From the NCBI GenBank assembly GCA_946623125.1, contig CAMOQR010000002.1, forward strand, positions 1,922-65,921: a stretch of DNA of 64,000 nucleotides, read 5' to 3'. The stretch comes from an uncultured Bacillales bacterium (GTDB taxonomy: Bacteria > Bacillota_I > Bacilli_A > RF39 > UBA660). A program made the position numbers and the translations under genes. A model generated the notes under the pieces. That model saw only the letters and a list, made by a program, of their open reading frames with translations. It searched no databases and was not told where the DNA came from. The number at the start of each line of letters is the position of its first letter. Positions within the stretch are counted from its first letter, which is position 1. Shown piece after piece: positions 37,181-56,391 of the stretch.

Positions 37181-37194
37181 TTTATTCTCCTTGT

Positions 37195-38139: not shown

Positions 38140-38205
38140 AGAATCACCTCATCTTTACTCATCATTATAAACTATTTCTCTTCTACAATCAAATAAGAAA
38201 GCATT

Positions 38206-40032: not shown

Positions 40033-40988
40033 TCTTTTTCCTCTAAATTCTCGGCAATAATAAATCTTGGCCTTTGTTTTGTTTCACTATACATTTTTCC
40101 AACATATTCTCCTATGATTCCTATTGATATCATTTGTAATCCTCCAATAAACCAAATAGAAATTGATAAGAATGTCCATCCACTTACAGTGTTTCCTGTT
40201 AAGAAACGGATAAGAGAATAAATCATGATTGCAATACTTACAAATAAAATTACAAATCCTAATGTACAGATTAATCTTAATGGTTTTACACTAAATGAAG
40301 TAATTCCATCCCAAGCAAAATTTAACATCTTTTTTAATGGGTATTTTGATTCTCCCGCAAATCTTTCATTTCTTTCATAATAAACAATATCTGATTTAAA
40401 TCCTACTAATGGGAACATTCCTCTTAAAAATAGATTTACTTCTTTAAAGTTTTCAAATTCATCTAATACTCTTTTTGATGTTAATCGATAATCTGCATGA
40501 TTATATACACAGTCTACTCCTAAAACTTTCATAAATTTATAGAAGCCTTCTGCCGTTACTCTTTTAAAGAAAGTATCTTTTTTTCTTGCACTTCTTACTC
40601 CGTATACAATATCCTTACCCTCTTTATATTTTTCAATCATTTCATCCATAGCATTGATATCATCCTGTAAGTCTGCATCCATTGATATTACAATATCTGC
40701 ATATTTTTTAGCAGTCATTAAACCACCAAGTAATGCATTTTGATGTCCTCTATTTCTTGATAAAGTAATTCCTGTAAATAATTTTTCTTTTTGATGAATT
40801 TCTTGGATAATATCCCAAGTTTTATCTTTTGATCCATCATTTACATACATTACTTTACTTTTTGGAGAAATCTTTTTTGTCTTTATTAGTTTCTCCATCT
40901 TTGCTTTTAATTGTCTTGTTGTTTCTTCTAATACTTCTTCTTCATTGTAGCATGGAACTACTACGTATAATATTGGTTCTTTTTTCAT
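40029..40988 (-). CDS. Polyprenyl-phosphate glycosyltransferase (GT2, CsbB/GtrB-like, two C-terminal TM helices)
   Basis: ATG at 40988 with an AGGAG RBS. Motifs: LYVVVPCYNEEEV, VNDGSKD, DADLQD. Two C-terminal TM helices end in GEYVGKMY. Confidence 0.8.
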   Translation of the reverse strand: MKKEPILYVVVPCYNEEEVLEETTRQLKAKMEKLIKTKKISPKSKVMYVNDGSKDKTWDIIQEIHQKEKLFTGITLSRNRGHQNALLGGLMTAKKYADIVISMDADLQDDINAMDEMIEKYKEGKDIVYGVRSARKKDTFFKRVTAEGFYKFMKVLGVDCVYNHADYRLTSKRVLDEFENFKEVNLFLRGMFPLVGFKSDIVYYERNERFAGESKYPLKKMLNFAWDGITSFSVKPLRLICTLGFVILFVSIAIMIYSLIRFLTGNTVSGWTFLSISIWFIGGLQMISIGIIGEYVGKMYSETKQRPRFIIAENLEEKE

Positions 40989-41046
40989 ATTATTCACTCC
41001 TAAAGTCATTATATCAAACTTTTCTTTTATTTGACAAATTTCCCCT

Positions 41047-43737: not shown

Positions 43738-45244
43738 TTTTATCTTCCTTTCCCTCTATTTCAATATAGTTCTTATGGTAAATTATGGTTGCTGGTTCAT
43801 TTAACCAATTATCTCTATCCTCTGAAAAGTCACAATAATAGATTGGATATGGATAATATGTTAATGGTTTAAATGTTACATCTTTTATGGAATCATCTTC
43901 TAAAACCTTATATCTTTCTAACCACTCTTTTTGATAAGTTTTATGTTCATTCGTTCTAAGTAAAGCAAGTGTTTGATAAGATGTTAAATCCTCTCTTCCA
44001 TAATATAGAGCCAGTCCTAATACCATTAATACCGTTCCTAATAATAGAAAGGAATTATCTTTGATATATTTATTTCCTAATTCTGCTGCATTTTTTGTAG
44101 TAATTTTATTTGTCTTTAGAACATTTCTAAAGTATCCTACGATGTAGTATAAAGATATAACCATAAAGAATAAGTAACTAAAATATATAATATTTAGTAA
44201 TCTTCCTTCTCCTGTTGATGACATAGAATATAGTGTTGGAGTAAATTCTGCGGATAATATACAATACATAAATAAAACTACTATTAATGGATAAGAATAC
44301 TTTTTCTCTACCTTTTTATAAGTTGGATATAATAAATATCCTATTATTAATATTACAATTATATTAATTGCATTTGTCCATTCTGTCATAAATTTTAGAC
44401 AGAAATAGAATGATAAAATAATTGCTTTAACAGGATTCATTCCTGTTACATTTTTTTGTCTAAATTTATTTCCTGGTGCTGTTGCACTGATTCCTAGACC
44501 TAGAATAGAAATTGCTAGATATGGAAGTGCAGACTTATCTTTCTTTATGATTAGTAAATAGATATTTAAGAAGAATAGAATTATTACTTGTTGAAGGGCA
44601 ATAATGAAGTTTCCTCCTCCAATGATTCCTATTAATAAAAGAAGAATTATCGTATTTGTTTTTGTCTTTTCTTTTAACCAATATTGTTTTATTAATAAAG
44701 CAAATTCTAATAGTTCTAATGAGAAGAATATAATATAATAACTTGCTCCATTCCACCAATATAGACCTTGTGTTTTATCTACTAGTGTTTCCATACATAA
44801 TAAGAAAAATAATAATAATACAATCCAATAAGATTTTTTATCTAGTTTTAGTGCTTTTACTAGTAGTTGTTTTAATAAATAAGCAAGACTTAAAAAGAAG
44901 ATTCCTAATACTAAGAAAGTAGTTAAAAAGTAAGCGTTTTTCCCTAATATTCCAGGGTTTAGGCTGAATAAAATAATTGCAGAATAAGTTCCTTGCCATG
45001 TATGATAGAATTCATTTAACGTTTTGAATGATCCCGTAACTACCTTCCCTATTCCTTCTGTTTGTAAAACGTTCATGGTCTCTTTTCCATAACTAAAATC
45101 ATCTGCAGATGGAACGGTATAAAAAGATACCCATAATACAGGTACTAATAAAAGTATTGTTATTAGAATTGTAATTATTAGAACATTTTTTTTGGTTATT
45201 AGTTTGTTTAAGGCTTGATTCCATTTTTTCATTTTTTGTTGCAT
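43709..45244 (-). CDS. Polytopic membrane protein, possibly a GT-C-type glycosyltransferase
   Basis: 511 aa with ~12 TM helices and a short C-terminal soluble tail. It lies directly downstream of the UbiA/HAD pair. No motif recognised. Confidence 0.4.
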   Translation of the reverse strand: MQQKMKKWNQALNKLITKKNVLIITILITILLLVPVLWVSFYTVPSADDFSYGKETMNVLQTEGIGKVVTGSFKTLNEFYHTWQGTYSAIILFSLNPGILGKNAYFLTTFLVLGIFFLSLAYLLKQLLVKALKLDKKSYWIVLLLFFLLCMETLVDKTQGLYWWNGASYYIIFFSLELLEFALLIKQYWLKEKTKTNTIILLLLIGIIGGGNFIIALQQVIILFFLNIYLLIIKKDKSALPYLAISILGLGISATAPGNKFRQKNVTGMNPVKAIILSFYFCLKFMTEWTNAINIIVILIIGYLLYPTYKKVEKKYSYPLIVVLFMYCILSAEFTPTLYSMSSTGEGRLLNIIYFSYLFFMVISLYYIVGYFRNVLKTNKITTKNAAELGNKYIKDNSFLLLGTVLMVLGLALYYGREDLTSYQTLALLRTNEHKTYQKEWLERYKVLEDDSIKDVTFKPLTYYPYPIYYCDFSEDRDNWLNEPATIIYHKNYIEIEGKEDKNGKHKKKNN

Positions 45245-45258
45245 AATAAACCTTCTTT

Positions 45259-45837
45259 CTATTTTTTTATTTTATTCTTATCTAATTTTATAATTTCATT
45301 TTTTTTCACTAAATAAGCATTTTGTGCATAATGAAACATTGGGTAATCTGCAGAAATAGAGTCAGAATAAAAGTTTTTTATTTTTTGATTAGGATACTGT
45401 TCTTCATACCTCTTTATTTTTTCATAATCATGACAGTTTTTTGATATAAATTTTCCTGTTTTTTTGTCAACAATTGATGCAATTATTTTTACATTTAATT
45501 TTTTTTCTAATGGTTTTAATAAGAATTCTGGTGATGCAGAAATAATAACATCACTTGATTTTTGTTGCTTTTTATACCATTCTTTTATATTTATTATTTT
45601 TATATTCCAAAACTCATCAATTAAATCATCTACCGAGTTCATTCTTTTTAAAAAAGAAAAAATATGTTCTTTCATTGCTGTTTTATCAATTTTTTTTAAT
45701 TTATATAAAATAACTCCTTTTATTTGAGATGGAATATCTAATAATACTTTTTTATTTTTTTTGAGACAAAAAAAGTAAAAGTCAATGGATGAGTCTCCAT
45801 CATATATAGTCTCATCAAAGTCATAGGCATTTATCAT
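45259..45837 (-). CDS. HAD-superfamily phosphatase
   Basis: HAD motif I is present as YDFDETIYDGDS at the N-terminus. The start overlaps the UbiA-like stop as ATGA. Confidence 0.65.
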   Translation of the reverse strand: MINAYDFDETIYDGDSSIDFYFFCLKKNKKVLLDIPSQIKGVILYKLKKIDKTAMKEHIFSFLKRMNSVDDLIDEFWNIKIINIKEWYKKQQKSSDVIISASPEFLLKPLEKKLNVKIIASIVDKKTGKFISKNCHDYEKIKRYEEQYPNQKIKNFYSDSISADYPMFHYAQNAYLVKKNEIIKLDKNKIKK

Positions 45838-46703
45838 AGATAAAGAATTCCTCCCATTACAATTACATAAATAATTGCTGTTATTAATAATTTTTTATCT
45901 CCTAGTAATACTTCAATTGGATCCCCATGAGAGTTTCCTTCTATATCTAGACTATATAGTTGTAATATAATCATTAATAATGGAATTGTCCAGAATAAAT
46001 AATCATTTCCTATTCTTGATATTGTAGTTGGATCTACACACCATAATGTATAAGATACAACAGCAAGAGCAAGAGATACATACATGTTTTTATCTAGGAA
46101 ACTTTCGTTGTATCGTTCTAGTACTTTTCTGCTTTTTTCTCCATTTTTCATCATTTCATTCCGTCTTTTTCCAAATCCTAAATAGAATGATCCAAAGATA
46201 ATCATTAAGTATAAGTATTTTGATACTTCTACATTAACGATTACTCCTCCATACATTACGCGGAATACAAATCCTGATACTAATATCACTACATCAATAA
46301 TTGGTACATTTTTTAATCCATTACTATATAAAATATTTAAAAATAAATAACAGAATGGAATAATAAAAATAAAGATATTATTCTCTTTTATATATAATAG
46401 ACTCATTAGTGAAACTGCAAAAATACATAATAGACCAATTATTATTTTTGCTTCTGTTACTTTTACTTTTCCACTAGCAAGTGGTCTATTCTTTTTAATG
46501 GGATGTAGTTTATCTTTTTCAATATCTTTCATATCATTTATTACATAGACAATACTTGATATAAATGAGAATATGAAAAAACCAATGATTCCTTTTTCTA
46601 AATAAGTAGTATTTAACATATTTAGGCTAAAAAATATTGGTAAAAAAATTAATCCATTTTTTAACCAGTGTTTTGCACGTATTAGTTTTATATAATTTTT
46701 CAT
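45834..46703 (-). CDS. UbiA-family polyprenyl-phosphate phosphoribosyltransferase (decaprenyl-phosphate phosphoribosyltransferase-like)
   Basis: True start is the ATG at 46703 (MKNYIKLIRAKHWLKNGLIF). The track ORF extends to 47078 only because the frame stays open across the upstream gene. The Asp-rich motif NDMKDIEKDKLHPIKKNRPLASG matches my memory of the DPPR-synthase signature. Confidence 0.75.
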   Translation of the reverse strand: MKNYIKLIRAKHWLKNGLIFLPIFFSLNMLNTTYLEKGIIGFFIFSFISSIVYVINDMKDIEKDKLHPIKKNRPLASGKVKVTEAKIIIGLLCIFAVSLMSLLYIKENNIFIFIIPFCYLFLNILYSNGLKNVPIIDVVILVSGFVFRVMYGGVIVNVEVSKYLYLMIIFGSFYLGFGKRRNEMMKNGEKSRKVLERYNESFLDKNMYVSLALAVVSYTLWCVDPTTISRIGNDYLFWTIPLLMIILQLYSLDIEGNSHGDPIEVLLGDKKLLITAIIYVIVMGGILYL

Positions 46704-46717
46704 GTTATCCTTCTTTC

Positions 46718-47656
46718 TTATTGTTCTTTTTCTGTTTCTTTTATAATGTATACTGGGCGTTGTTTTACTTCTAAATATATTTTTGAAAGATATAATCCAA
46801 TGATTCCCAAGAAGAATAGTTGAATTCCACCGACAAAAATAATAATACATGCCATAGATGGCCATCCTGTTGCAGGATCTCCCCAAATAATTGTTTTTAA
46901 TATGATAAATATAATTGCTAGGAACGATACTAAGCAAAAGAACATTCCAACATATGCTGACATAATCAGTGGTGTTGTTGAGGATGATGCTACTCCTTCT
47001 ACTGCATATTTTATTAATTTTCTTAAATTGAATTTTGATGTTCCAGCACTTCTTTTTGGTGCTTGATAGGATATCCATTTTGTTTTAAATCCAATATAAC
47101 CATAAATACCTTTTGTATATCGATTATACTCCTTTAATGATAAAATTGCATCTACCATTTTTCTTTTCATTAATCTAAAATCTCTTGCACCTGGCATTTG
47201 CTTTGAATCAGATATTTTATCGATTAATTTATACCAAGTATTTGTTAGAGATCTTCTTATCAAATTATAATCTTTATGAGAATCGGTATATAATGCCACG
47301 CAGTCATAATCTTCTTTCTCTAAAATCTCATACATTTCGATTATTTTTTCAGGTGGATCTTGTAAGTCGACATCAAGTATTGCAGCATAATCACCCGTTA
47401 CAGCATTTAATCCTGCAAACATTCCTGCTTCTTTTCCATAATTTTTAGAAAAGGATATGTATCTTACTCTTTTATCTTCTTTAGAGTAATCTCTTATAAT
47501 TTTTAATGTATTATCTTTTGATCCATCATCTATAAAAATTAATTCAAATTCTTGATGAGGCATTTTTTCCATGACTTTTTTCATTTCTTCGTAAAAGATT
47601 GGAATGGCTTCTTCCTCATTATAGCATGGTATTATCAATGATATTTTCTTTGACAT
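46718..47656 (-). CDS. Polyprenyl-phosphate glycosyltransferase (GT2, GtrB/ArnC-like, two C-terminal TM helices)
   Basis: Motifs: ISLIIPCYNEEEAI, IDDGSKDNT, DVDLQDPP. Two C-terminal TM helices. Confidence 0.8.
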   Translation of the reverse strand: MSKKISLIIPCYNEEEAIPIFYEEMKKVMEKMPHQEFELIFIDDGSKDNTLKIIRDYSKEDKRVRYISFSKNYGKEAGMFAGLNAVTGDYAAILDVDLQDPPEKIIEMYEILEKEDYDCVALYTDSHKDYNLIRRSLTNTWYKLIDKISDSKQMPGARDFRLMKRKMVDAILSLKEYNRYTKGIYGYIGFKTKWISYQAPKRSAGTSKFNLRKLIKYAVEGVASSSTTPLIMSAYVGMFFCLVSFLAIIFIILKTIIWGDPATGWPSMACIIIFVGGIQLFFLGIIGLYLSKIYLEVKQRPVYIIKETEKEQ

Positions 47657-47667
47657 ACTGTATACTC

Positions 47668-48582
47668 CTATCTATTTCTATATACTAATTTTGGACTGAT
47701 TTTAACCAGTATTTTTTTAATTTTTCTGGATGCTGTATCTGTTAGTAAATAATCAAATACTTTTTCTTTTCTTAATAGGCTTTTATATTCTTTATAATCT
47801 TTCTTATTTAATTCTGTTATCTTTATGATTAATGAATTAGAAATAAAACTCATAAAATATTTTAAATCTAAATTTGTCTTTTTTATTTCATTTCTTAAAA
47901 ATAGATAATGATTATAAAAGTCCTCTACTTTCTTTTTTGTTTTCTCATAATTGTTTGTGCTCATAATACTATTTTCTCTTTGTCGGTAATTGTATCCAAT
48001 ATAGGATATTGATTTTACTTTTTTGGCTTTTATAATGACTAGTGGAATTAATCCAAAATCTTCATGAATTTTTCCTTTGGCAAATTCAAAATGATTTTCT
48101 TCGTAATAACTTTTTTTTATTGCATAACACCAAGCATTTTCTACAAAATGGTACTTACATATTTTTTCAAAGGCTTTCTCTCCATTACATGTATCAAATC
48201 CTTCTTCTTGCCATTTTTTAGGCTCTTGATTAGAATAAGTTTCTTGTATTTGAAAACGTATCAAATCTGGATTATCTTTTGTTGCGTTATTTAATTTTTC
48301 TAATAATTCTTCTTCTATTGTATCATCACTATCTAAAAATAAAATATACTCTCCTCTTGCTTTTTTTACTCCATTATTTCTAGCAACACTTAACCCTTGG
48401 TTTTCTTGATTAATAATTTTTACTTTGTAATCTTTTACAATTTCCATACTATTATCTTTTGTTCCGTCATTTACAACGATTACTTCATAATCTTTAAAGG
48501 TTTGTCTTGCAACACTTTCTAGACAATCTTTTATATATTCTTCTACATTATATACTGGGATTATGATACTGAATTTTGGCAT
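47668..48582 (-). CDS. GT2 glycosyltransferase (first gene of the glycopolymer locus)
   Basis: Motifs: FSIIIPVYNVEEYIKDCLESVARQT, VVNDGTKDNS, LDSDD. RBS GAGGTGAT. Confidence 0.8.
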   Translation of the reverse strand: MPKFSIIIPVYNVEEYIKDCLESVARQTFKDYEVIVVNDGTKDNSMEIVKDYKVKIINQENQGLSVARNNGVKKARGEYILFLDSDDTIEEELLEKLNNATKDNPDLIRFQIQETYSNQEPKKWQEEGFDTCNGEKAFEKICKYHFVENAWCYAIKKSYYEENHFEFAKGKIHEDFGLIPLVIIKAKKVKSISYIGYNYRQRENSIMSTNNYEKTKKKVEDFYNHYLFLRNEIKKTNLDLKYFMSFISNSLIIKITELNKKDYKEYKSLLRKEKVFDYLLTDTASRKIKKILVKISPKLVYRNR

Positions 48583-48674: not shown

Positions 48675-49346
48675 ATGAAAAAATATTTTGTTTTATTCAT
48701 AATCATGTTTTTAATATGTGGTTGTGGTCGTGATAAAAAAATTATAATGGAAGAAAAGAATGATCCTAATGAGACTGTTATTGATGATTCTGAAAAGAAT
48801 GATAATCATAGTCTTAATATTCCTATTCATTTTTATCAGAAAAAAAAGAATTCATTAAAAATGGTTCATTCTGTTTCAAAAAAAGATATTACTAATAATA
48901 GTTTAGGTAGATATTATATCTATTTTTCTGATCAGGAAGAGGTTTCTTTAAAAGATGATTTTTCTTATTCTTTTTATGATAAATGGTTAAAGTATCAAGA
49001 TAAATCTTCTTTTAAGATTGGATTTCGTATTCAGTATCATACAAGTGATTTAGGAGATATTTCATATGATATTTTTGATATAAGTAATTTCTTGAATCAA
49101 GATTATTTAGAGATCAGAATATTTGATGATTATCAAAATCGAAATCATAAAGAAGAGTTTTTTCTAAATCAAGATAATTTTAATGATAAAAGTTTATTTT
49201 CTTCTATTCAGTTATTAGGTGGAAATAAAGGAGGATTAATTGATTCTAAAATACTAATTCGTGTATTTACATATACTGATCGAGAGCATATTCAATATAA
49301 TAATGGAGATCAATTTACAATTTGTATTGATTCTTATGAATGTTAA
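48675..49346 (+). CDS. Hypothetical lipoprotein
   Basis: Signal peptide MKKYFVLFIIMFLICGCG with a lipobox-like ICGC; RBS GAGGTG. This is the only plus-strand gene between 12.9 and 60.6 kb. Confidence 0.6.
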   Translation: MKKYFVLFIIMFLICGCGRDKKIIMEEKNDPNETVIDDSEKNDNHSLNIPIHFYQKKKNSLKMVHSVSKKDITNNSLGRYYIYFSDQEEVSLKDDFSYSFYDKWLKYQDKSSFKIGFRIQYHTSDLGDISYDIFDISNFLNQDYLEIRIFDDYQNRNHKEEFFLNQDNFNDKSLFSSIQLLGGNKGGLIDSKILIRVFTYTDREHIQYNNGDQFTICIDSYEC

Positions 49347-49370
49347 AAGGGTTTCATTTGAAACCCTTTT
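49345..49370. terminator. Bidirectional rho-independent terminator
   Basis: 11-bp inverted repeat AAAAGGGTTTC / GAAACCCTTTT with a 4-nt loop and a T-run after it. It sits between convergent genes. Confidence 0.65.
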
Positions 49371-49371
49371 T

Positions 49372-52300
49372 TTATGTAGTAATTAATGAACCTTTTGTAA
49401 CATTCGATGAGGATGATTTTGTTGCGATTACATTATCAATTGCTGTTACGACACTTGTATAATTTACTGTTATGGATGCTCCTGTTTTAGTTGCAGCATT
49501 GTAAAACGTATTTGAGTAAGTTGTTGGATTTTTATATAAATTCATTGTGCAACTAATTCCTACTGCATTATAAAACATTGATTTAATGTTGGTTGCATAT
49601 ACTTTAAGTGTTCCAATACTAAATGGTGCAGCATTATATCCTGTGTAGTAAAACATCTCTGTCATATTAGTTACTTTTGCTGTGTTCCAATTTGATAAAT
49701 TTCCTATTGATAATGTGCTTGCATTATATCCTAAATAGGCAAACATATAAGACATGTTTGTTGCTTGCGTTACATTCCATCCTGATAAGTCTCCAATGTT
49801 TATTGAAGTACAGTTATATCCCAGTTTGTAAAACATGTACTGAAAATATTTTACTTTTGATACATTCCAGTTTGATAGATTTCCAAATGAAATAGAGGAA
49901 GAATTCAATCCAAAACAATAAAACATATATCTTAAATCTGTAGCGCTCGATAGATTCCATCCGGAGATATCTCCTAGATTGATTCCATTTGTTGTAACTC
50001 CTTGTGCAGCATTGTGAAACATATAAGATAAATTTGTTACATTTGTTAAAGTCCATCTGGAGATATCTCCTATGCTCCAAGTAGTCGCAGCATTTCCTGT
50101 ATTGCTAAACATGTAACTCAAATTATTAGCACTTGACATATCCCATTTTCCAAAATCCGTAAGATTAAAACTGGCTGTTGCATTTCCTGCTCCTTTGAAC
50201 ATTGATGCAAAACTAGTAACGTTTGATACATCCCATTTACTAATATCGCCTAAGCTCCAATTTAGAGCACTACTTGCTGCTCCTGTAAACATACATCCTA
50301 ATGAGGTTGCTCCTGACATATTCCAGCTGGATATGTCTCCAATAGACCACACTGTTGCTTTTTTTCCTGAATCTCCAAATAAATAGTAGAAATTTGTAAC
50401 GTGACTTACATCCCAATTTTGTAAATTTCCTAAATTAAAGGTTGTGTCGGCTCCTCCTGCACCATGAAATGCGTGAGCAATCTTTGTAATTGCTGATGTG
50501 TTCCAGCCTGATAAATCTCCTATATACCAAGTTGTTGCATTTCGTGCCGTATAATAAAACATATCTTCTATCGTTTCTAATTTTACTATATTCCATTTTC
50601 CAATATTTCCTATGTTAAATGTTAATGAATTACCTGCACAATTATAAAACATATAAGCCATATTTGTAACGTTTTCTGTGTTCCAATTTGACAAGTCTCC
50701 TATACTCCAATTGTTTTCTTGTGAATATTGTGCAGCATTTGAGAACATTCTTTCCATTGTTGTAACATTTCCAGTATCCCAGTTAGATAAATCTCCAATA
50801 TACCATTCAGTGTTATTACTTTTTGTACCTGTTTCAGAAAACATAGAGTTCATTTTTGTAACTTTTGCAGTCGTCCAACTGCCAATATTTCCTATGTTAA
50901 ATGAATTTGCTGATGAACCAGCATTGTTAAACATATGTTCCATACTTGTTACAGCAGTTGTGTTCCATCCGGATAAATCTCCTATATACCAAGTTGTTGC
51001 ACTATGTCCTGCATTAGCAAACATATTTGCAAAGCTAGTAGCTTTTTCAACATTCCAATTTCCAATATTTCCTATATTAAATGTTGAAGCACTACTCCCT
51101 GTATTTAAGAATAGGTATGTCATGTTTGTTACTTTGGATGTATTCCATCCGGATAAATCTCCTACATTCCATGTATTTGCATTAAAACCACTTTCTCGAA
51201 ACATGTTACTCATCGATGTTGCGGCCAGTGTTTGCCAATTATTAAGATTTCCAATATTCCATTCTTCTTCGGTCGTGAATCCTGCACCATAAAACATACT
51301 ATCAAAACTTTTTACTTTTTTTACATTCCAGTTATCTAATGAGCCAATTGACCAGGTCGTTGCTTTATATCCAAAATTTTTAAACATTTGATACATTGAT
51401 TCAACATTTCCTACATTCCAACTTGACAAATCTCCCAAATACACTGTATCTGCTTGTTCTCCTGCGAAACTAAACATATCATCCATGCTTTGTATATTTG
51501 AAGTATCCCATTTCCCAATATCTCCAATATTAAAGTTATCTGCATTTTGGCCAGCATATGAGAACATTTCTTTCGTATCTTTCACGGCAGATGTTGTCCA
51601 ATTTGATAAATCTCCTATTTCCCATGTCATTGCTTCATTTCCAAAGTAGGAAAACGTTGCATTCATTGTTGTGGCACTTTGGGGCCTCCATCCTGATAAG
51701 TCTAGGGTTACTGTAGTTGAATTAATTCCCGCTTCACTAAAAGTTTCTGTCATGTCTGTTACATTTGTAACATTCCAATTGCTTATATTTCCTATCGACC
51801 AGTTTTCTGCTTCTGCACCAAACCCTTCAAAGGTATCTTTTAAATTAGTAAGAGCCTGGGGCCGCCAATTTCCTAAATTTAAAGATATTGATGTGGCGTT
51901 ATATGCTGCTTGTTGAAACATACTTTCAAAAGTTGTTACTTTTGAAACATCCCAATTTGAAATATTTAAACTCCAACTAGAAGCAGGCTTCCCTGTTACT
52001 GCAAACATAAAATCCATTGTTGTTACATTTGAGGTATTCCAATTGCTTAGGTCTAGACTCCAAGTAGTAGCCGAAAAGCCTGCACTTTGAAACATTTTTG
52101 TCATATTTTCTACATTAGAAACATTCCAATTCGATAAATCTCCAATATAAAAAGTTGATTGGGCATGTTGAATGGCATAAAACATCAAATCCATTTTTGT
52201 TGCGGATTGTGTATTCCAATTAGTTAAGTCAAGATTTACAAAGCTTGAGTTTAAACCTGCTTGGGTAAAAGTATTAGTAAATATTTTTACACTTGAAACA

Positions 52301-53346
52301 TCCCATTTACCAATCTCTCCTACATTCCATTCTGTGGTTTGTTTTGATCCAGCATTAAAGAATAATCCATTCATTGTTGTAACTTTAGAAGTATTCCAAT
52401 TGGAAATATCTCCAATATTAAACCCATTATTTCCGGCATTATTGAAAACTGCTTGCATTTGAGTAACATTTCCCGTGTTCCAATTTGATAAATCTCCTAT
52501 ACTCCACGTTTTTGCTTTGCTTCCAGTACTTTGAAATAATCCATTTATATTGACTACATTCCTAATATCCCAATCATCTAATCCTATAATGTTCACCACA
52601 CCTGCATAATCCATTCCCACTCTTCCAAAGGTTCGATACAATGTTGTTACTTTTGATGTATCCCATCCTGTTACGTTAATGGTTACTGAGTTTGAATCAC
52701 TATATGTACCACTTCCCATTTTTCCTGCTGCAAAAGCAAAGGTATCTGTTAAGTTATTTAGACTATTCATGTTCCAGTGTGATAATTCAAAATTTACATT
52801 TGTTGAGTTGTATCCTGAACCATAAAAGGCTTGCGATAAGTCAGTCAGTTTTGGGGCATATAGATTTCCTGATACATTAAATGAAGATGCACTAAAACCT
52901 GCGTATTGAAACATGTTATTTGCTCTTTCAACATTTGTAAAATCCATATTATTTGTATTTATTCCTATTAAATATTGTTTAGCATAGAACATATAACTAG
53001 TTGATACAATTGGATAATTATTAATAGAACTACATGTTGCTGTTGAAACAGTAACATTAGAAGTGTCTAAAGCATAATACACTCCCCAACCAAATTCACT
53101 AATATCTTGCCATCCATCTTCTGTTTTTTCTTGCATGAAATGATATTCGTAAGTTCCATCATTATAGGATGCTCCAACAGATAAGGCACCATCATATGTA
53201 CATGGATTTGCACCCGTATACTTGTAATAATCCGTATTTCCAGACACAAAAAGATTATTGGATAAGGCAGAATATCCAACAGACTCAAATAACAAAATTG
53301 CAAAAATTGCAATTGAAAATAAAATGTTTATTTTCTTTTTACTCAC
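49372..53346 (-). CDS. Giant DUF285/BspA-type leucine-rich-repeat surface protein with a SipW-cognate-like signal peptide and no C-terminal anchor
   Basis: GTG start at 53346 with an AGGTGA RBS that contains the stop of the signal peptidase gene. I count about 35 units of the W(N/D)xSxVTxMxxMF type, with a ~28-30-aa period. The N-terminus is ...LLFESVGYSALSNNL. The C-terminus has no LPXTG motif or TM helix. Confidence 0.8.
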   Translation of the reverse strand: MSKKKINILFSIAIFAILLFESVGYSALSNNLFVSGNTDYYKYTGANPCTYDGALSVGASYNDGTYEYHFMQEKTEDGWQDISEFGWGVYYALDTSNVTVSTATCSSINNYPIVSTSYMFYAKQYLIGINTNNMDFTNVERANNMFQYAGFSASSFNVSGNLYAPKLTDLSQAFYGSGYNSTNVNFELSHWNMNSLNNLTDTFAFAAGKMGSGTYSDSNSVTINVTGWDTSKVTTLYRTFGRVGMDYAGVVNIIGLDDWDIRNVVNINGLFQSTGSKAKTWSIGDLSNWNTGNVTQMQAVFNNAGNNGFNIGDISNWNTSKVTTMNGLFFNAGSKQTTEWNVGEIGKWDVSSVKIFTNTFTQAGLNSSFVNLDLTNWNTQSATKMDLMFYAIQHAQSTFYIGDLSNWNVSNVENMTKMFQSAGFSATTWSLDLSNWNTSNVTTMDFMFAVTGKPASSWSLNISNWDVSKVTTFESMFQQAAYNATSISLNLGNWRPQALTNLKDTFEGFGAEAENWSIGNISNWNVTNVTDMTETFSEAGINSTTVTLDLSGWRPQSATTMNATFSYFGNEAMTWEIGDLSNWTTSAVKDTKEMFSYAGQNADNFNIGDIGKWDTSNIQSMDDMFSFAGEQADTVYLGDLSSWNVGNVESMYQMFKNFGYKATTWSIGSLDNWNVKKVKSFDSMFYGAGFTTEEEWNIGNLNNWQTLAATSMSNMFRESGFNANTWNVGDLSGWNTSKVTNMTYLFLNTGSSASTFNIGNIGNWNVEKATSFANMFANAGHSATTWYIGDLSGWNTTAVTSMEHMFNNAGSSANSFNIGNIGSWTTAKVTKMNSMFSETGTKSNNTEWYIGDLSNWDTGNVTTMERMFSNAAQYSQENNWSIGDLSNWNTENVTNMAYMFYNCAGNSLTFNIGNIGKWNIVKLETIEDMFYYTARNATTWYIGDLSGWNTSAITKIAHAFHGAGGADTTFNLGNLQNWDVSHVTNFYYLFGDSGKKATVWSIGDISSWNMSGATSLGCMFTGAASSALNWSLGDISKWDVSNVTSFASMFKGAGNATASFNLTDFGKWDMSSANNLSYMFSNTGNAATTWSIGDISRWTLTNVTNLSYMFHNAAQGVTTNGINLGDISGWNLSSATDLRYMFYCFGLNSSSISFGNLSNWNVSKVKYFQYMFYKLGYNCTSINIGDLSGWNVTQATNMSYMFAYLGYNASTLSIGNLSNWNTAKVTNMTEMFYYTGYNAAPFSIGTLKVYATNIKSMFYNAVGISCTMNLYKNPTTYSNTFYNAATKTGASITVNYTSVVTAIDNVIATKSSSSNVTKGSLITT
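49626..52899 (-). repeat. Array of ~35 degenerate 84-90-bp coding repeats (DUF285 LRR units)
   Basis: The periodic motif GD(I/L)SxWN(T/V)SxVTxMxxMFxxA recurs throughout the translated ORF. Confidence 0.85.
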
Positions 53347-53352
53347 AAATTA

Positions 53353-54483
53353 TCACCTGTTTTTGATTAATTCACTTAATGAAACGGTTGGCCAACCTAA
53401 CCATTTTATATTCATTACTACTTTTCCAACAACATCGTTGTTGTTTACAACCCACGCATCTTCACTTTCATTCGCATCTCCTTTAGTTCGAAAGTGATTT
53501 TTATCTTGTTCCACTTCTATTACTCTATGAACTACAACTTTTCCTAGTTCTTGAAAAGCAATAATATCTCCTTTTTTTATTTCTTTTTTCTTTTTATCTA
53601 TAATTACAATATCCCCTTTATTGATTGTTCCTTGCATAGAACCTGATCCAATGGCAAGAGAATAAAATCTAAATTTATTACTTGTAAGATATAACATGAT
53701 ACAAACATTTACGGCTATAAATATATTGCATGCGGTAAACAATATCTTATTATTTTTTAATTTTCTACTATTCTTTATTTTTTCTGTTTTTACATTTGTT
53801 ACATTGGCAATAAATAATCCTGTTACGATTGGAAGTAATACTTGTGCAATGATTTCAAAGAAATCTCCTAAGTTTGGGAATACTGGTAAAAGATATTTTG
53901 GAATGATTATTAATAATTGATATATTAGACTACATTTCTTATCTGATTTATATGTAATATATGACAATAGTATATGTTTTAAGATACATGGAAGAATCAA
54001 TGATAATATTGCATTAAATATATCTAGTCTTGATGTATACATCCTTAAATTGATAAGAGATGGCATTTCTAACATAATTCCAATTAATGGAGTTATATAG
54101 ATAATTGATTTATGATAGAAATTGTTTTTAATTAAGTTTTCTCTTAATACTTCAATTGATCCTATTACGATTAATGCAGTTGTGATATTAGTTACAATTC
54201 CAAAGAATGATCTACTATATGATGTATAATAAAATCCAAAGAAAAATCCTAAGAAGTTTGTTATAAAGTAATAAAACAAAATACAAATAATAATAATTAG
54301 TGTTATATCTGTATGAAATCTTTCTTTTCTTTTTTCTGGTTTAAATATAACTGAAGGAATAATTGCCATTAATAGAAGGATTCCTAAATACACATATCTA
54401 TTGATGGTAATATAAAAGAAACAAAAAAAAGAAAGAAGTATGATTATACATTCAGTCAACTTTATTTTTGTTGAATATTTCAT
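53353..54483 (-). CDS. ER/archaeal-type (S26B, SipW-like) signal peptidase I fused to a ~270-aa N-terminal polytopic membrane domain
   Basis: ATG at 54483 with an AAGGAG RBS. The C-terminal ~100 aa carry SGSMQGT (catalytic Ser), VVHRVIEV (His) and TKGDANESED (GDAN box), with no Ser-Lys dyad signature. About 9 predicted TM helices precede this domain. No in-frame ATG would give a stand-alone one-TM enzyme. Confidence 0.7.
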   Translation of the reverse strand: MKYSTKIKLTECIIILLSFFCFFYITINRYVYLGILLLMAIIPSVIFKPEKRKERFHTDITLIIIICILFYYFITNFLGFFFGFYYTSYSRSFFGIVTNITTALIVIGSIEVLRENLIKNNFYHKSIIYITPLIGIMLEMPSLINLRMYTSRLDIFNAILSLILPCILKHILLSYITYKSDKKCSLIYQLLIIIPKYLLPVFPNLGDFFEIIAQVLLPIVTGLFIANVTNVKTEKIKNSRKLKNNKILFTACNIFIAVNVCIMLYLTSNKFRFYSLAIGSGSMQGTINKGDIVIIDKKKKEIKKGDIIAFQELGKVVVHRVIEVEQDKNHFRTKGDANESEDAWVVNNNDVVGKVVMNIKWLGWPTVSLSELIKNR

Positions 54484-54498
54484 ACAATCCACTCCTTT

Positions 54499-55077
54499 TT
54501 ATTTTTGTGAAAAATTTAATTGATAGGAAAAACCCTGCGCGGTAAAATTTCCTACTCCCTCTCCTAACTCATAATATACATTTAAAAATACATTCTTTTT
54601 AGTTGCAGTTGTTCCATTTTTTGCTTCTAATATATCTCCTATTTGTACCAATTGTTCCCCATTTGGATCATAACTTACTGTATATTTAACATTTCCACAT
54701 GTCATAGTGCTTCCATTTGTTGTACAACTCATTCCTGTTGGAGGGGTCATTGTAATGCCGGAAATTTGTCCCGCTATATCTCCATTATTTACTAGCATTA
54801 AATTATATAAGCATTTACTGTCTGTTTTATAAAATTTTGCTGAAACATTGCTAACTGTAGTTTTGTTTATTACTCCTACACTACAATCTGCATTAACGTT
54901 TCCTGTGCTTTTGGTATTAGGATCAAATCCAATATCCCAAGTTAGAGCATTTTGTGTTGTTTTATTGACTGTCATTGTAACATTGGAACTTAAAAGAGCA
55001 AATGCAATGGACATTGTTATTAAAGTAAGAGAAAAAATTATGACTCCACCATATATTAATTTCTTATTGCGAATCAT
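54499..55077 (-). CDS. TasA/CalY (camelysin, M73)-like secreted protein, paralog 4 (most divergent)
   Basis: ATG at 55077 preceded by GGAGGA; an alternative ATG at 55092 overlaps the upstream stop as TAATG. The signal peptide ends SIAFALLSS. It also has QNALTWDIGF, four conserved Cys and the C-terminal FSYQLNFSQK. Confidence 0.55.
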   Translation of the reverse strand: MIRNKKLIYGGVIIFSLTLITMSIAFALLSSNVTMTVNKTTQNALTWDIGFDPNTKSTGNVNADCSVGVINKTTVSNVSAKFYKTDSKCLYNLMLVNNGDIAGQISGITMTPPTGMSCTTNGSTMTCGNVKYTVSYDPNGEQLVQIGDILEAKNGTTATKKNVFLNVYYELGEGVGNFTAQGFSYQLNFSQK

Positions 55078-55091
55078 ATTTTTCTCCTCCA

Positions 55092-56354
55092 TTACTCATC
55101 TATGTCTGCTTCTTTTAAAGTATATTTATAAGTACGATCAATATCTTGAACATAGAATTCTGATTTTACATTATTAACTTTAAAATATAATATTGGTTTA
55201 TTTACCGTATCCCGTACATCTAATAATTCTAAGAATGTAGTAACGGTATAGATATCATTACTATTTTTCAACATATTATTATCTTTTAAAGTTACAATTA
55301 CTTTATCGTATGTTGTTAATATTTGTTTTAGTTTTTTATCATATTTTGAATCATTTTTAAATGATTTTGATAATAATTCTGTTAATTTATATAAATTATA
55401 AATACTAAATCCAAGTGATATTGTTAATACAATGAATGATAATATTACAACTATTCCATAAGATTTTGTAATATGAGTATCCATATTATTAGATGTTTCA
55501 CTCTTTGTGATACCATATGTTAATTCTTTTAGTGGAATTGTTAGAGATGATACTTCTCTTTCTCCTTTTTCATCTTTTATAAATAATGAAACTTTTAGAT
55601 TAGATTTTCCAATAATTGCGTATTCATTCATATAATCAATTATATAATCGTTATAATCTTGAAATGGAATATCAATTGATTCTACAAAGGATAAAACATT
55701 TCCATTTACTGATACTTTTTTATTGTCTAGTATTTTTTCTTCTTTTTTAAATAATTCTTTTCCACTTTCGGCATCTAATTTAACATCCATTTTTGTTGTA
55801 ATATAATATTCAAAGTTTGCTTTTGTTTTTTCTTGGAATACTTTATTATAATTAAAATCAACACGAATATTTTTTGTTAGGGAGGTTACATATTGTAACC
55901 CTTCCTCTAAACAAGAAGTATTATAAAATTTATTTTCATTTAAGCATACTTGATAATTAATGCTTGTATTTTCATTTGCTTGAATTACTTTTGTTCTATT
56001 TTTTTGAAAAATGATTAATGATATTACAAATATCATGATTGTCATACAACATAGAAGTATTTTCTTTGTTAATCTTGGTAAAAATCCATAGTAATCATTC
56101 TTTTTCTTTGGTTTTGTTAATTTTATTTTGTTTTGTTTTTCCGGTTCTTGCTCTTCTAATAGTTCTGGTTGATTATTATCTATTGATTCTTGTAGATTCT
56201 CTTCTTTTTGTGTGTTTTCTAATTCTTCTATGTTTGTATTTGATTGAAAAGTGTCATTTTTAATATCTAATTCTTCATTTTCGGAAATATTTTCAGATTC
56301 ATCTAATAATTCTTCAATTTCTTCTGGTTCATTTGTTTTATTATTTATTTCCAT
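55092..56354 (-). CDS. Two-TM membrane protein with an acidic cytoplasmic N-terminus and a ~200-aa outside domain (I recall a similar DUF5305-type protein next to SipW genes; unverified)
   Basis: 420 aa. The first ~90 aa are very acidic (E/D/N-rich). TM1 is ILLCCMTIMIFVISLIIF and TM2 is YGIVVILSFIVLTISLGFSIY, followed by a ~95-aa C-terminal cytoplasmic domain. Confidence 0.5.
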   Translation of the reverse strand: MEINNKTNEPEEIEELLDESENISENEELDIKNDTFQSNTNIEELENTQKEENLQESIDNNQPELLEEQEPEKQNKIKLTKPKKKNDYYGFLPRLTKKILLCCMTIMIFVISLIIFQKNRTKVIQANENTSINYQVCLNENKFYNTSCLEEGLQYVTSLTKNIRVDFNYNKVFQEKTKANFEYYITTKMDVKLDAESGKELFKKEEKILDNKKVSVNGNVLSFVESIDIPFQDYNDYIIDYMNEYAIIGKSNLKVSLFIKDEKGEREVSSLTIPLKELTYGITKSETSNNMDTHITKSYGIVVILSFIVLTISLGFSIYNLYKLTELLSKSFKNDSKYDKKLKQILTTYDKVIVTLKDNNMLKNSNDIYTVTTFLELLDVRDTVNKPILYFKVNNVKSEFYVQDIDRTYKYTLKEADIDE

Positions 56355-56391
56355 TAGACACCCTTCTTTCTTTTTTTACTTTTTATTTTTT

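What the first reader, a model, noticed from the sequence alone, without database searches (positions are those of the whole stretch)
53353..54483. SipW-like signal peptidase fused to a ~270-aa, ~9-helix membrane domain of unknown function
Stand-alone SipW/S26B enzymes are about 190 aa, with one N-terminal TM anchor and often one C-terminal TM. Here the catalytic module is compact, covering only the last ~100 aa: SGSMQGT ... VVHRVIEV ... TKGDANESED. It has no C-terminal TM.

About nine hydrophobic helices precede it. No internal ATG lies near the last helix, so this is unlikely to be two genes merged by the ORF caller. The extra domain has conserved-looking polar positions inside helices (for example GSIEVLRENL and ILKHILLSY).

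It could be an assembly platform, a substrate-docking module or a second enzymatic activity. Coupling cleavage to polymerisation would be mechanistically new for TasA-type fibres.
Basis: partly seen in the sequence, partly recalled or inferred. Interest (0 to 1): 0.7.

Follow-up and report, generated by a model that had tools for sequence, protein, structure and literature searches.

The report
Multi-pass signal peptidase for surface fibres
This gene encodes a real, widely conserved enzyme that trims the export tags off neighbouring fibre-building proteins; it carries an extra eight-helix membrane module whose role is unknown, an architecture a 2026 preprint has already noted in one sentence.

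Summary
Window 53353..54483 (minus strand) is one 376-aa ORF. It has eight TM helices (residues 1-233), a basic linker, a ninth anchor helix, and an outward-facing archaeal/ER-type signal peptidase I domain (TIGR02228, 84 bits; Ser282/His319/Asp336/Asp342).

It is not two merged genes. About 290 sampled relatives keep the fusion, from Bacilli and Clostridia to Archaeoglobus and Thermoproteales. An N-domain profile finds 1,423 clusters, and no true stand-alone copy turned up.

The gene sits in a conserved cassette: small secreted subunits, the fused peptidase and a DUF5305 partner. Here a DUF285 giant protein with the same 'Y(A/S)ALS' signal motif follows.

A January 2026 preprint on AbpX fibres already mentions a "ten-TM" dedicated SPase I with a DUF5305 accessory. 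The architecture is therefore not new, but the membrane module has not been analysed.

New here:
- The module's only structural neighbour is the CAAX protease Rce1, and the match is weak (TM 0.44-0.51).
- It lacks the CPBP catalytic histidines.
- It has an absolutely invariant Glu111-x-x-Arg114 in the inner membrane leaflet.

Best reading: a dedicated peptidase whose membrane module recognises substrates or acts as a scaffold. A second catalytic activity is not excluded. Nothing supports coupling to polymerisation.

The parts
58218..58245 (-). Promoter-like site (TTGAAA, 16 nt, TG-TAAAAT) just upstream of the first subunit gene. A terminator-like hairpin at 58261-58282 closes the upstream gene.
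   Evidence: consensus scan only; inferred operon start
57612..58202 (-). Secreted subunit paralogue 1 (196 aa), signal peptide ending ...IAYA|ALSQNL.
   Evidence: hhalign 97.3% to AbpX-like subunits of related loci
57014..57598 (-). Secreted subunit paralogue 2 (194 aa), ...IAYA|ALSTTL.
56392..56982 (-). Secreted subunit paralogue 3 (196 aa), ...IAYA|AMSSTF.
55092..56354 (-). Two-TM protein of 420 aa, a divergent DUF5305-family member and the presumed accessory partner of the peptidase.
   Evidence: The protein itself gives no Pfam hit. Its orthologue in L001 (39% identity, E 3.5e-83) scores 57 bits on PF17231. It also aligns along its length with the L039 DUF5305 protein (BLASTP 5e-16; 98.6 bits on PF17231).
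54499..55092 (-). Secreted subunit paralogue 4 (197 aa), ...IAFA|LLSSNV, the most divergent of the four.
53785..54483 (-). Fused peptidase, residues 1-233: eight-TM N-terminal module with no family assignment and a weak Rce1-like fold.
54142..54153 (-). Codons for Glu111-Val-Leu-Arg114 in TM4, cytoplasmic half: the family-wide invariant polar pair.
53683..53784 (-). Residues 234-267: basic cytoplasmic linker (EKIKNSRKLKNNK) and ninth TM helix, which is the peptidase membrane anchor.
   Evidence: TIGR02228 match starts at residue 244
53356..53682 (-). Residues 268-376: extracytoplasmic S26B catalytic domain. Ser282 is at 53638-53640, His319 at 53527-53529, Asp336 at 53476-53478 and Asp342 at 53458-53460.
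49372..53346 (-). DUF285-repeat surface protein of 1,324 aa. Its GTG start lies 6 nt after the peptidase stop and its signal motif is ...SVGYS|ALSNNL. Probable further substrate, possibly a tip adhesin.
49345..49370 (.). Hairpin with an 11-bp stem flanked by A and T runs, a probable bidirectional terminator closing the operon.

Best explanation
The gene encodes a dedicated, polytopic type I signal peptidase. It belongs to a fibre or adhesin operon of the AbpX branch of the TasA superfamily, in an uncultured low-GC Bacilli bacterium.

**Shown**
- It is one ORF with nine TM helices, the N-terminus inside, and an ER/archaeal-type Ser-His peptidase domain outside.
- The same architecture occurs across Bacillota and Archaea.
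- It always sits beside small secreted beta-rich subunits and a DUF5305 membrane protein.

**Inferred**
- After Sec export, the C-terminal domain cleaves after the A-Y-A (or G-Y-S) of the shared 'I-A-Y-A|A-L-S' motif.
- Its substrates are the four co-encoded subunits and the downstream DUF285 giant protein. Cleavage exposes the N-terminal strand these subunits are expected to use for donor-strand assembly.
- DUF5305 acts as an accessory subunit.
- The eight-helix N-terminal module is most likely a non-protease membrane scaffold fused to the enzyme's anchor helix.
- It has an Rce1-like helix bundle, but the CPBP catalytic histidines are absent.
- Its invariant Glu111/Arg114 pair lies in the inner leaflet. 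There it could grip the basic n/h boundary of the cognate signal peptide, or shape the local membrane.
- This would give substrate selection and positioning, much as accessory subunits do in the eukaryotic signal peptidase complex.
For: **Single ORF, start and topology:**

**Peptidase identity**
- TIGR02228 scores 84.1 bits against a cut-off of 51.85.
- Foldseek matches SEC11A and SEC11C at E 5e-5.
- Ser282, His319, Asp336 and Asp342 are each kept in 267-270 of the roughly 270 sequences that cover the domain.

**The fusion is conserved**
- 194 full-length relatives.
- 1,423 clusters match the N-domain profile, and most of the top 150 are 364-393 aa long.
- All 19 hits to a Clostridia/archaeal N-domain profile are 373-453 aa long, and 17 carry S24/S26.
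- Genome loci in Peptococcaceae, Syntrophomonadaceae, Archaeoglobus and Thermoproteales carry it.

**The cassette is conserved**
- tblastn finds subunits and the 420-aa protein next to the peptidase in most of L001-L041.
- The partner is DUF5305.
- The subunits are homologous to those of the distant loci (hhalign 97.3%, E 2.5e-11).

**Shared signal motif,** including on the DUF285 protein.

**Experimental precedent**
- Deleting the dedicated S26 peptidase TafD blocks pilin processing, and DUF5305 (TafG) is its proposed partner (PMC11821415).
- The AbpX preprint describes a ten-TM SPase I plus DUF5305 accessory.

**N-domain**
- Confident models (pTM 0.83).
- Rce1 is the only PDB neighbour (probability 0.87-0.96, TM 0.44-0.51; the next hit is at 0.16 or below).
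- Invariants are mostly Gly and Pro, plus E111/R114.
- There is no invariant His or Cys.
Against: - No experiment bears on this protein.
- The scaffold role is an inference from missing catalytic residues.
- E111 and R114 are as invariant as the peptidase nucleophile. That is unusual for a purely structural pair and would fit a second active site.
- One orphan paralogue (L035) has lost the peptidase Ser and His yet keeps every N-domain invariant. So the module may have a function of its own.
- The Rce1 similarity is weak. Foldseek E is 0.05-0.44, and hhalign against CPBP gives only 11% probability.
- I had no model coordinates. I could not check whether E111/R114 face a groove next to the anchor helix.
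- The window's subunits lack the aromatic-2/acidic-4 donor-strand hallmark of AbpX. Their fold was not modelled.
Confidence: 0.55

Rival explanations
1. The N-terminal module is a second enzyme. It would be an Rce1/CPBP-derived intramembrane hydrolase using Glu111 (with Arg114, Asn170 and Tyr188), acting from the inner leaflet. For example, it could degrade the signal peptide left behind after cleavage, giving a combined signal peptidase and signal-peptide peptidase. Alternatively it could make a second cut in the substrates.
For: - Rce1 is the only structural neighbour.
- hhalign places R114 on the Arg of the CPBP EExxxR motif and keeps TM4-TM7 colinear.
- E111 and R114 are invariant in 289/289 and 290/290 sequences. 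N170 is N in 256 of 292 and Y188 is Y in 274 of 292.
- By helix position, all lie 6-10 residues from the cytoplasmic face.
- L035 keeps these residues after losing the peptidase catalytic residues.
- Four to six abundant substrates per operon would leave many signal peptides to clear.
- CPBP enzymes do act in surface-protein sorting, as in myxosortase (PMC11980579, title and abstract).
Against: - The CPBP catalytic set is absent. A 19-sequence CPBP alignment has E140, E141, R145, H170, H214 and N218 invariant. The N-domain has no invariant His, and E111 aligns one position off the Glu pair.
- There is no Pfam PF02517 hit in 19 members, even at E<=10.
- hhalign probability is 11%.
- A single acidic residue is a thin catalytic inventory.
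Confidence: 0.2
2. The membrane module would be an assembly or anchoring platform that couples cleavage to polymerisation or holds the growing fibre.
For: - The module is always fused to the peptidase and always sits beside the subunit genes.
- The operon carries no recognisable sortase or LPXTG anchor in this window, so some anchor is needed.
- An outer-face conserved patch exists: G79, G83, Y89, the P200-x-x-P203 loop and a two-strand beta pair.
Against: - Related AbpX subunits assemble into fibrils in vitro from mature recombinant protein alone (preprint).
- The strictly invariant polar pair lies in the inner leaflet, away from where polymerisation would occur.
- The extracytoplasmic loops of the module are only 5-10 residues long.
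- Related loci use LPXTG/sortase or SLH anchors instead.
Confidence: 0.1
3. The module has a function unrelated to proteolysis, for example handling a lipid-linked glycan or another membrane substrate. In that case the fusion only ensures co-expression.
For: - The operon sits next to a large glycan-synthesis region. This includes an O-antigen-ligase-like/GT4 fusion at 58281-60590, and GT2, acyltransferase and UbiA genes at 36-48 kb.
- The subunits are Ser/Thr-rich.
- E/R pairs can bind phosphate head groups (general knowledge).
Against: - The fusion and its cassette are conserved in loci without such glycan genes, including archaeal ones.
- There is no fold or family match to any transporter or glycosyltransferase: Foldseek probability is 0.16 or below for all except Rce1.
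Confidence: 0.08
4. Artefact: two adjacent genes (a membrane protein plus a normal one-TM SipW) were merged by the ORF caller or by a sequencing error.
For: - An internal TTG (codon 248) and ATG (codon 263) exist.
- A few database entries contain only the N-part.
Against: - Neither internal start has an SD, and both lie in or beside the anchor helix.
- The single-ORF architecture recurs in hundreds of independent assemblies across two domains of life.
- The short entries examined are a contig-end piece with an in-frame TAA in an A-rich run (P0121) and an N-terminally truncated piece (P0055).
Confidence: 0.01

Closest known systems
The 'ten-TM' dedicated signal peptidase I of AbpX loci (bioRxiv 10.64898/2026.01.04.697558)
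   Same: - A TIGR02228-type SPase I with a polytopic membrane domain.
- It is encoded beside AbpX-like subunits, tip proteins and a DUF5305 accessory, in Bacteria and Archaea.
- The window's peptidase is homologous along its full length to archaeal and clostridial copies that sit beside subunits carrying the AbpX 'A-W-x-D' hallmark.
- The subunits are homologous too.
   Different: - The preprint gives the architecture one sentence and no analysis of the membrane module.
- Here there are nine TM helices and no C-terminal TM.
- The subunits lack the aromatic-2/acidic-4 donor-strand residues.
- The presumed tip is a DUF285 repeat protein.
- I could not compare directly with the preprint's accessions.
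Bacillus subtilis SipW (tapA-sipW-tasA operon)
   Same: - ER/archaeal-type Ser-His signal peptidase.
- Dedicated to co-encoded fibre subunits.
- Weak match to the SipW equivalog model.
   Different: - SipW is about 189 aa, with one N-terminal and one C-terminal TM.
- The score here is 59 bits against a cut-off of 190, so this is not an orthologue.
- The eight-TM module and the DUF5305 partner are absent from the tasA operon (PMC9245690).
Haloarchaeal TafD/TafG (tat-fimbriae; PMC11821415)
   Same: - A dedicated S26 peptidase plus a DUF5305 protein next to donor-strand pilins.
- Genetic proof that the peptidase is needed for pilin processing.
   Different: - TafD has four TM helices, with the peptidase domain at the N-terminus and a second outside domain.
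- Its substrates use the Tat pathway.
- It has no eight-TM module.
Eukaryotic signal peptidase complex (SEC11 with SPCS1/2/3)
   Same: - The catalytic domain is the closest solved structure: 7p2p and 7p2q, E 5e-5.
- A catalytic subunit surrounded by extra membrane helices and a partner with outside and inside domains. The preprint draws this analogy for DUF5305.
   Different: - The extra helices here are fused in cis and are unrelated in sequence to SPCS1/2.
- The analogy is functional, not a homology claim.
Rce1 / CPBP (type II CAAX protease, Pfam PF02517)
   Same: - An eight-helix bundle of similar size.
- The only PDB neighbour of the module.
- An acidic-plus-Arg motif on TM4 near the cytoplasmic face. 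The Arg aligns in hhalign.
   Different: - No Pfam hit.
- 11% profile-profile probability.
- ExxR instead of EExxxR.
- The FxxxH and HxxxN histidines are absent.
- From memory (Pei et al. 2011, not checked here), gamma-secretase APH-1 is an inactive CPBP relative that serves as a scaffold. That would be the nearest functional parallel.

Membership tests
Archaeal/ER-type signal peptidase I (S26B; NCBIfam TIGR02228) | Family HMM score above the curated cut-off | tested here: met
   84.1 bits against 51.85, residues 244-373. Pfam S24 scores 34 bits and S26 26.9 bits, both above cut-off.
Archaeal/ER-type signal peptidase I (S26B; NCBIfam TIGR02228) | Ser nucleophile in an S-x-S-M motif, and a His (not Lys) general base | tested here: met
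   GSGS282M and VH319R. Ser is present in 270/272 and His in 270/272 relatives that cover the domain.
Archaeal/ER-type signal peptidase I (S26B; NCBIfam TIGR02228) | Conserved Asp residues of the GDxN...D box | tested here: met
   D336 and D342 are invariant in the 40-sequence alignment and present in 267/270 of the wider set.
Archaeal/ER-type signal peptidase I (S26B; NCBIfam TIGR02228) | Catalytic domain on the outer face, behind an N-terminal TM anchor | tested here: met
   Nine TM helices with a positive-inside count of 12 to 2 place the domain outside. This is a prediction only.
Archaeal/ER-type signal peptidase I (S26B; NCBIfam TIGR02228) | Cleaves signal peptides of exported proteins | not testable with these tools
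   Inferred from the shared AYA|ALS motif of neighbouring genes and from the TafD genetics.
SipW proper (NCBIfam NF046067 equivalog) | Equivalog HMM score above cut-off; about 189 aa with N- and C-terminal TM | tested here: not met
   59.3 bits against a cut-off of 190. The protein is 376 aa with no C-terminal TM.
Polytopic ('ten-TM') SPase I of AbpX-type loci (preprint 2026) | TIGR02228 domain fused to a multi-helix membrane domain | tested here: met
   Nine TM helices here. Homologous fusions occur in Clostridia and Archaea.
Polytopic ('ten-TM') SPase I of AbpX-type loci (preprint 2026) | Encoded next to a DUF5305 accessory protein | tested here: met
   The 420-aa neighbour is homologous to PF17231 proteins. 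The window copy itself falls below Pfam detection.
Polytopic ('ten-TM') SPase I of AbpX-type loci (preprint 2026) | Encoded next to AbpX-like subunits with aromatic-2 and acidic-4 in the mature N-terminal strand | tested here: inconclusive
   The subunits are homologous to those of the distant loci, which read A-W-T-D or Y-W-E-D (hhalign 97.3%). The window subunits read A-L-S-T/Q. No direct comparison with P. abyssi AbpX was possible, and a profile search of PDB sequences found nothing.
CPBP / Rce1 intramembrane protease (Pfam PF02517) | Family HMM match | tested here: not met
   No PF02517 hit in 19 N-domains at E<=10. hhalign against a 19-sequence PF02517 alignment gives 11% probability.
CPBP / Rce1 intramembrane protease (Pfam PF02517) | Motifs EExxxR, FxxxH and HxxxN/D | tested here: not met
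   The CPBP alignment shows E140, E141, R145, H170, H214 and N218 invariant. The N-domain has only E111-x-x-R114 and no invariant His.
CPBP / Rce1 intramembrane protease (Pfam PF02517) | Eight-TM Rce1 fold | tested here: inconclusive
   4cad chains are the only hits with probability 0.87-0.96, TM 0.44-0.51 and 250-270 aligned columns. However, E is 0.05-0.44 and rmsd 6-8 A.
Exosortase / archaeosortase | Invariant Cys (with Arg and His) in a polytopic domain (from memory of Haft et al. 2012) | tested here: not met
   No invariant Cys or His in the N-domain. No Pfam or NCBIfam hit. The subunits carry no C-terminal TM sorting tag.
TasA / camelysin (Pfam PF12389), for the neighbouring subunits | Family HMM match over the jelly-roll domain | tested here: not met
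   2 of 12 subunits hit weakly (best E 0.0057). Matches in relatives cover only the signal-peptide region.

The most novel reading that the evidence does not exclude
The eight-helix module may be an Rce1-derived intramembrane enzyme with a new catalytic arrangement built on the invariant Glu111/Arg114. It would work from the inner leaflet on the same precursors that the outer Ser-His site cleaves. One polypeptide would then both remove and dispose of (or re-cut) the signal peptide. Together with DUF5305, it would form a prokaryotic counterpart of the eukaryotic signal peptidase complex.
Probability: 0.15. Interest if true: 0.75.

Novelty: new member of a known kind. Interest (0 to 1): 0.45.

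Why it matters
Dedicated signal peptidases control when and which fibre subunits mature, in biofilm-matrix systems found in both Bacteria and Archaea.

This family is large: at least 1,400 sequence clusters, many from gut and rumen Bacilli. It is annotated only as 'signal peptidase I'. Two-thirds of each protein is an unstudied membrane module with a strictly invariant Glu/Arg pair.

If the module selects substrates or shapes the membrane, the peptidase plus DUF5305 would be a simple, genetically tractable model for how the eukaryotic signal peptidase complex uses accessory helices. If the module is catalytic, it would be a new kind of intramembrane enzyme.

For annotation, the practical gain is a name for the cassette: subunits, polytopic SPase I, DUF5305 and a tip adhesin.

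Tried and rejected
**N-domain family searches that found nothing**
- Pfam and NCBIfam scans found nothing consistent. This covered 19 members at E<=10, plus five distant members.
- A profile search of PDB sequences gave only chance hits to PsbI and a rhodopsin.

- A genome scan with the N-domain alignment failed for lack of a conserved 7-10 column stretch. I used the full-length alignment instead.
I used the 19-sequence alignment.

**CPBP hypothesis**
- I found one CPBP gene in a fetched locus and built a PF02517 alignment from it.
- hhalign gave only 11% probability. CPBP membership is rejected; fold resemblance is kept as a lead.

**Exosortase idea:** rejected, because there is no invariant Cys and no C-terminal sorting tags.

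**Stand-alone N-domain**
- P0121 has an in-frame TAA in an A-rich linker on a 953-bp contig.
- P0055 is an N-terminally truncated piece.
- A search with a distant N-domain profile returned only fused proteins.
- The weaker 1,270 hits are not listed, so rare stand-alone forms cannot be excluded.

**Subunits:** searches against PDB sequences and Pfam were uninformative.

**Literature:** the Pyrobaculum bundling-pilus paper (PMC9245690) mentions no dedicated or fused peptidase.

**Limitation:** I had no access to model coordinates. The spatial clustering of E111, R114, N170 and Y188 is inferred only from helix positions.
Full report
**What is there**

The finding's coordinates match a minus-strand ORF. 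The ATG is at 54481-54483 and the TGA stop at 53353-53355, giving 376 aa. An AAAGGAG ribosome-binding site lies 7 nt upstream, and the preceding gene ends only 15 nt away. The window has 27% G+C.

Residues 244-373 match NCBIfam TIGR02228, the archaeal-type signal peptidase I. The score is 84.1 bits against a cut-off of 51.85. Pfam S24 and S26 are also above their cut-offs. The match to the B. subtilis SipW equivalog is far below cut-off (59 against 190). The protein is therefore SipW-like in type but not an orthologue.

In a 40-sequence alignment, Ser282, His319, Asp336 and Asp342 are invariant. Foldseek places the C-terminal domain closest to human SEC11A and SEC11C (E 5e-5).

**Topology**

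Hydropathy and two AlphaFold2 models agree on the layout (full length: pLDDT 83.3, pTM 0.77; residues 1-240: pLDDT 83.8, pTM 0.83). There are eight helices between residues 2 and 233, then a basic linker, then a ninth helix that anchors the peptidase (model helix 239-267). There is no C-terminal TM.

K/R counts are 12 in the predicted inner loops and 2 in the outer loops. This fits an N-in, C-out protein with the catalytic domain outside.

The only internal start codons near the junction are TTG 248 and ATG 263. Both lie in or beside the anchor helix and neither has a Shine-Dalgarno sequence.

**Is the fusion real and how common is it?**

- A search of 5.8 billion proteins found 194 relatives. 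Of the 120 listed, 116 are 360-395 aa long, with identity to the query as low as 32%. The only source names are 'signal peptidase I'.
- A profile of the N-domain alone, run against 1.84 billion cluster representatives, found 1,423 proteins at E<=0.001 and 924 at E<=1e-10. Most of the top 150 are 364-393 aa long.
- A scan of one genome per species found the full fusion in about 40 loci. These include Peptococcaceae, Syntrophomonadaceae, an Archaeoglobus and a Thermoproteales archaeon.
- A profile built only from the clostridial and archaeal N-domains returned 19 proteins. All are 373-453 aa long, and 17 carry S24 or S26.
- The short entries I could inspect are not stand-alone domains. P0121 has an in-frame TAA in the A-rich linker on a 953-bp contig. 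P0055 is an N-terminally truncated copy.

The two-genes-merged explanation is therefore excluded. The domain was not seen alone, although the weaker hits could not be listed.

**Context**

The gene is sixth in what looks like a seven-gene minus-strand operon:

1. a promoter-like site at 58245-58218;
2. three paralogous genes for secreted proteins of about 195 aa;
3. a gene for a 420-aa two-TM protein;
4. a fourth paralogue;
5. the peptidase;
6. a 1,324-aa DUF285 repeat protein, whose GTG start lies 6 nt after the peptidase stop;
7. a strong hairpin at 49345-49370.

The four small proteins share a signal peptide ending I-A-Y-A followed by A-L-S-x-x-L. The DUF285 protein has S-V-G-Y-S followed by A-L-S-N-N-L. 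Downstream large proteins in related loci have the same motif.

tblastn shows the same trio next to each other in most of L001-L041: one to six subunit genes, the fused peptidase and the 420-aa protein.

The 420-aa protein does not itself reach Pfam thresholds. Its orthologues do: they score 46-108 bits on DUF5305 (PF17231). It also aligns end to end with one of them at E 5e-16.

The window's subunits are homologous to the subunits of the clostridial and archaeal loci (hhalign 97.3%, E 2.5e-11). Pfam gives only weak Ig-like hits and weak hits to the camelysin signal-peptide region.

**What the literature says**

*The tafi paper (PMC11821415).* It shows by deletion and complementation that a dedicated S26 peptidase (TafD) is needed to process the pilin TafA. 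It proposes that the DUF5305 protein TafG works with it. TafD has a different architecture: four TM helices with the peptidase domain at the N-terminus.

[quoted passage not shown] It says AbpX loci usually also encode minor subunits, tip proteins and a DUF5305 accessory, and it likens this to the eukaryotic signal peptidase complex. It also reports that mature recombinant AbpX forms fibrils in vitro. [quoted passage not shown]

The distant loci I fetched show that hallmark (A-W-T-D, Y-W-E-D and L-W-A-D after the AYA site). The window's subunits read A-L-S-T/Q instead.

The fused architecture is thus already on record, though only in one sentence. The earlier Pyrobaculum paper found no dedicated peptidase in its loci. 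Two further literature searches turned up no analysis of the membrane module.

**The membrane module**

No Pfam or NCBIfam family matches it, in the window protein or in 24 relatives.

Across 292 family members the pattern of conservation is:

- G79, P200 and P203 are nearly invariant.
- G83, P165, Y188 and P218 are strongly conserved.
- E111 is E in 289 of 289 sequences that cover it.
- R114 is R in 290 of 290.

This is the same level of conservation as the peptidase Ser and His. There is no invariant His or Cys.

By helix position, E111, R114, K169/N170 and Y188 all lie 6-10 residues from the cytoplasmic ends of TM4, TM6 and TM7. G79, G83, Y89 and the P-x-x-P loop lie at the outer face, where the model has a small two-strand sheet.

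One orphan paralogue (L035) has lost the peptidase Ser and His (S282 to D, H319 to G) and the GDxN box. It keeps every N-domain invariant.

**Fold comparison**

With the full-length model, the only membrane-protein hit of note was the CAAX protease Rce1 (4cad: E 0.054, probability 0.96, 268 columns).

With the N-domain model alone, three Rce1 chains are the top three hits (probability 0.87-0.91, TM 0.44-0.51, E 0.26-0.44). Everything else has probability 0.16 or less.

To test membership, I built a 19-sequence alignment of PF02517 proteins. In it E140, E141, R145, H170, H214 and N218 are invariant.

hhalign against the N-domain gave 11% probability (P 0.0027). The alignment is colinear over TM4-TM7. 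It puts R114 on the motif Arg, puts E111 one position away from the Glu pair, and puts a non-conserved E/D139 on the first His.

I conclude that the module may share the Rce1 helix arrangement. It fails the defining features of the CPBP family, so it should not be filed there.

**How it most likely works**

*Shown:*

- the architecture;
- the topology (predicted);
- intact S26B catalytic residues;
- the conserved cassette;
- the shared cleavage motif.

*Inferred:*

- The outer Ser-His site cleaves after AYA (or GYS) in the four subunits and the DUF285 protein. This frees the N-terminal strand expected to be used for donor-strand assembly.
- DUF5305 acts as a partner.

For the membrane module, I favour a substrate-recognition or scaffold role. 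Four observations point that way:

- Most invariants are Gly or Pro.
- The canonical protease residues are missing.
- The module is fused directly to the anchor helix, beside which signal peptides must dock.
- The invariant E/R pair sits at the depth where the basic n/h boundary of a signal peptide would lie.

The main rival is that E111/R114 form a second, non-canonical catalytic centre, for example for signal-peptide disposal. The extreme conservation and the L035 paralogue keep that alive.

Related subunits self-assemble without any factor, the invariant polar pair faces the wrong side of the membrane, and the outer loops are very short.

**Verdict**

- The gene is a new member of a large family, and the family's architecture has recently been noted in print.
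- The family's membrane module has not been studied.
- The weak Rce1-like fold, the missing CPBP residues, the invariant Glu-x-x-Arg and the always-fused distribution are, as far as I could find, not in the literature held here.
- They make a concrete mutagenesis test possible.

Interest is moderate.

Noticed in passing
window 49372..53346 (-); also L002 7045-8517 and L075 1029-2057: The 1,324-aa DUF285 repeat protein starts 6 nt after the peptidase stop, and an AGGTGA SD overlaps the TGA. Its N-terminal motif (SVGYS|ALSNNL) matches that of the small subunits, and downstream large proteins in related loci do the same. It looks like a co-substrate, perhaps a tip adhesin joined to the fibre by its N-terminal strand.
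   Followed up: partly
window 54499..58202 (-), four subunit genes; alignment A4: The subunits have an invariant Gln two residues from the C-terminus (Q195), plus invariant W48, N103, G105, C134 and Y139. The distant AbpX-like relatives end in Q-W/F-N. The mature N-terminus (A-L-S-T) lacks the aromatic-2/acidic-4 pair reported for AbpX, which suggests a calcium-independent variant.
   Followed up: partly
L035 7986-9080 (Bacilli MAG RGIG5819): This is an orphan paralogue with no subunit or DUF5305 neighbours. The peptidase Ser and His are replaced (GTSDM; IGK for VHR) and the GDxN box is gone, yet all N-domain invariants (E..R, P165, Y188, PxxP) are kept. It hints at a peptidase-independent role for the membrane module.
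   Followed up: partly
P0154 (812 aa): The N-domain and the first roughly 50 residues of the peptidase domain are followed by about 500 unrelated residues. This is either a chimeric assembly or a different fusion. Its context could not be looked up.
   Followed up: no
L033 3198-5385 and 8010-10000: Two tandem pairs of fused peptidase plus DUF5305 sit on one contig. This echoes the duplicated tafD/tafG pairs reported in haloarchaea.
   Followed up: no
L036 4679-12795 (Peptococcaceae MAG): The related locus has AbpX-like proteins with acidic/Gly-rich linkers ending in LPKTGE plus a TM, and a sortase gene at 12133-12795. So this lineage anchors the system to the wall, unlike the window's operon.
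   Followed up: no
L074 200-907 (P0121): An in-frame TAA sits inside the A-rich linker between the membrane module and the anchor helix, and linker-like sequence continues in frame. It could be a sequencing error, or a hint that the linker is a hotspot for splitting the gene. The contig is only 953 bp.
   Followed up: partly
window 58281..60590 (-) and 36128..48582: Directly upstream of the operon is a 769-aa fusion of an O-antigen-ligase-like membrane domain to a GT4 glycosyltransferase. Beyond it lies a block of glycan genes: two GT2, Acyl_transf_3, UbiA prenyltransferase next to a HAD hydrolase, DUF6056 and DUF6080. There may be a link to glycosylation of the Ser/Thr-rich subunits.
   Followed up: no
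window 60745..62703 (+): A protein with four PASTA domains is encoded here. The organism therefore probably has a peptidoglycan wall, despite its Mollicutes-like 27% G+C.
   Followed up: no
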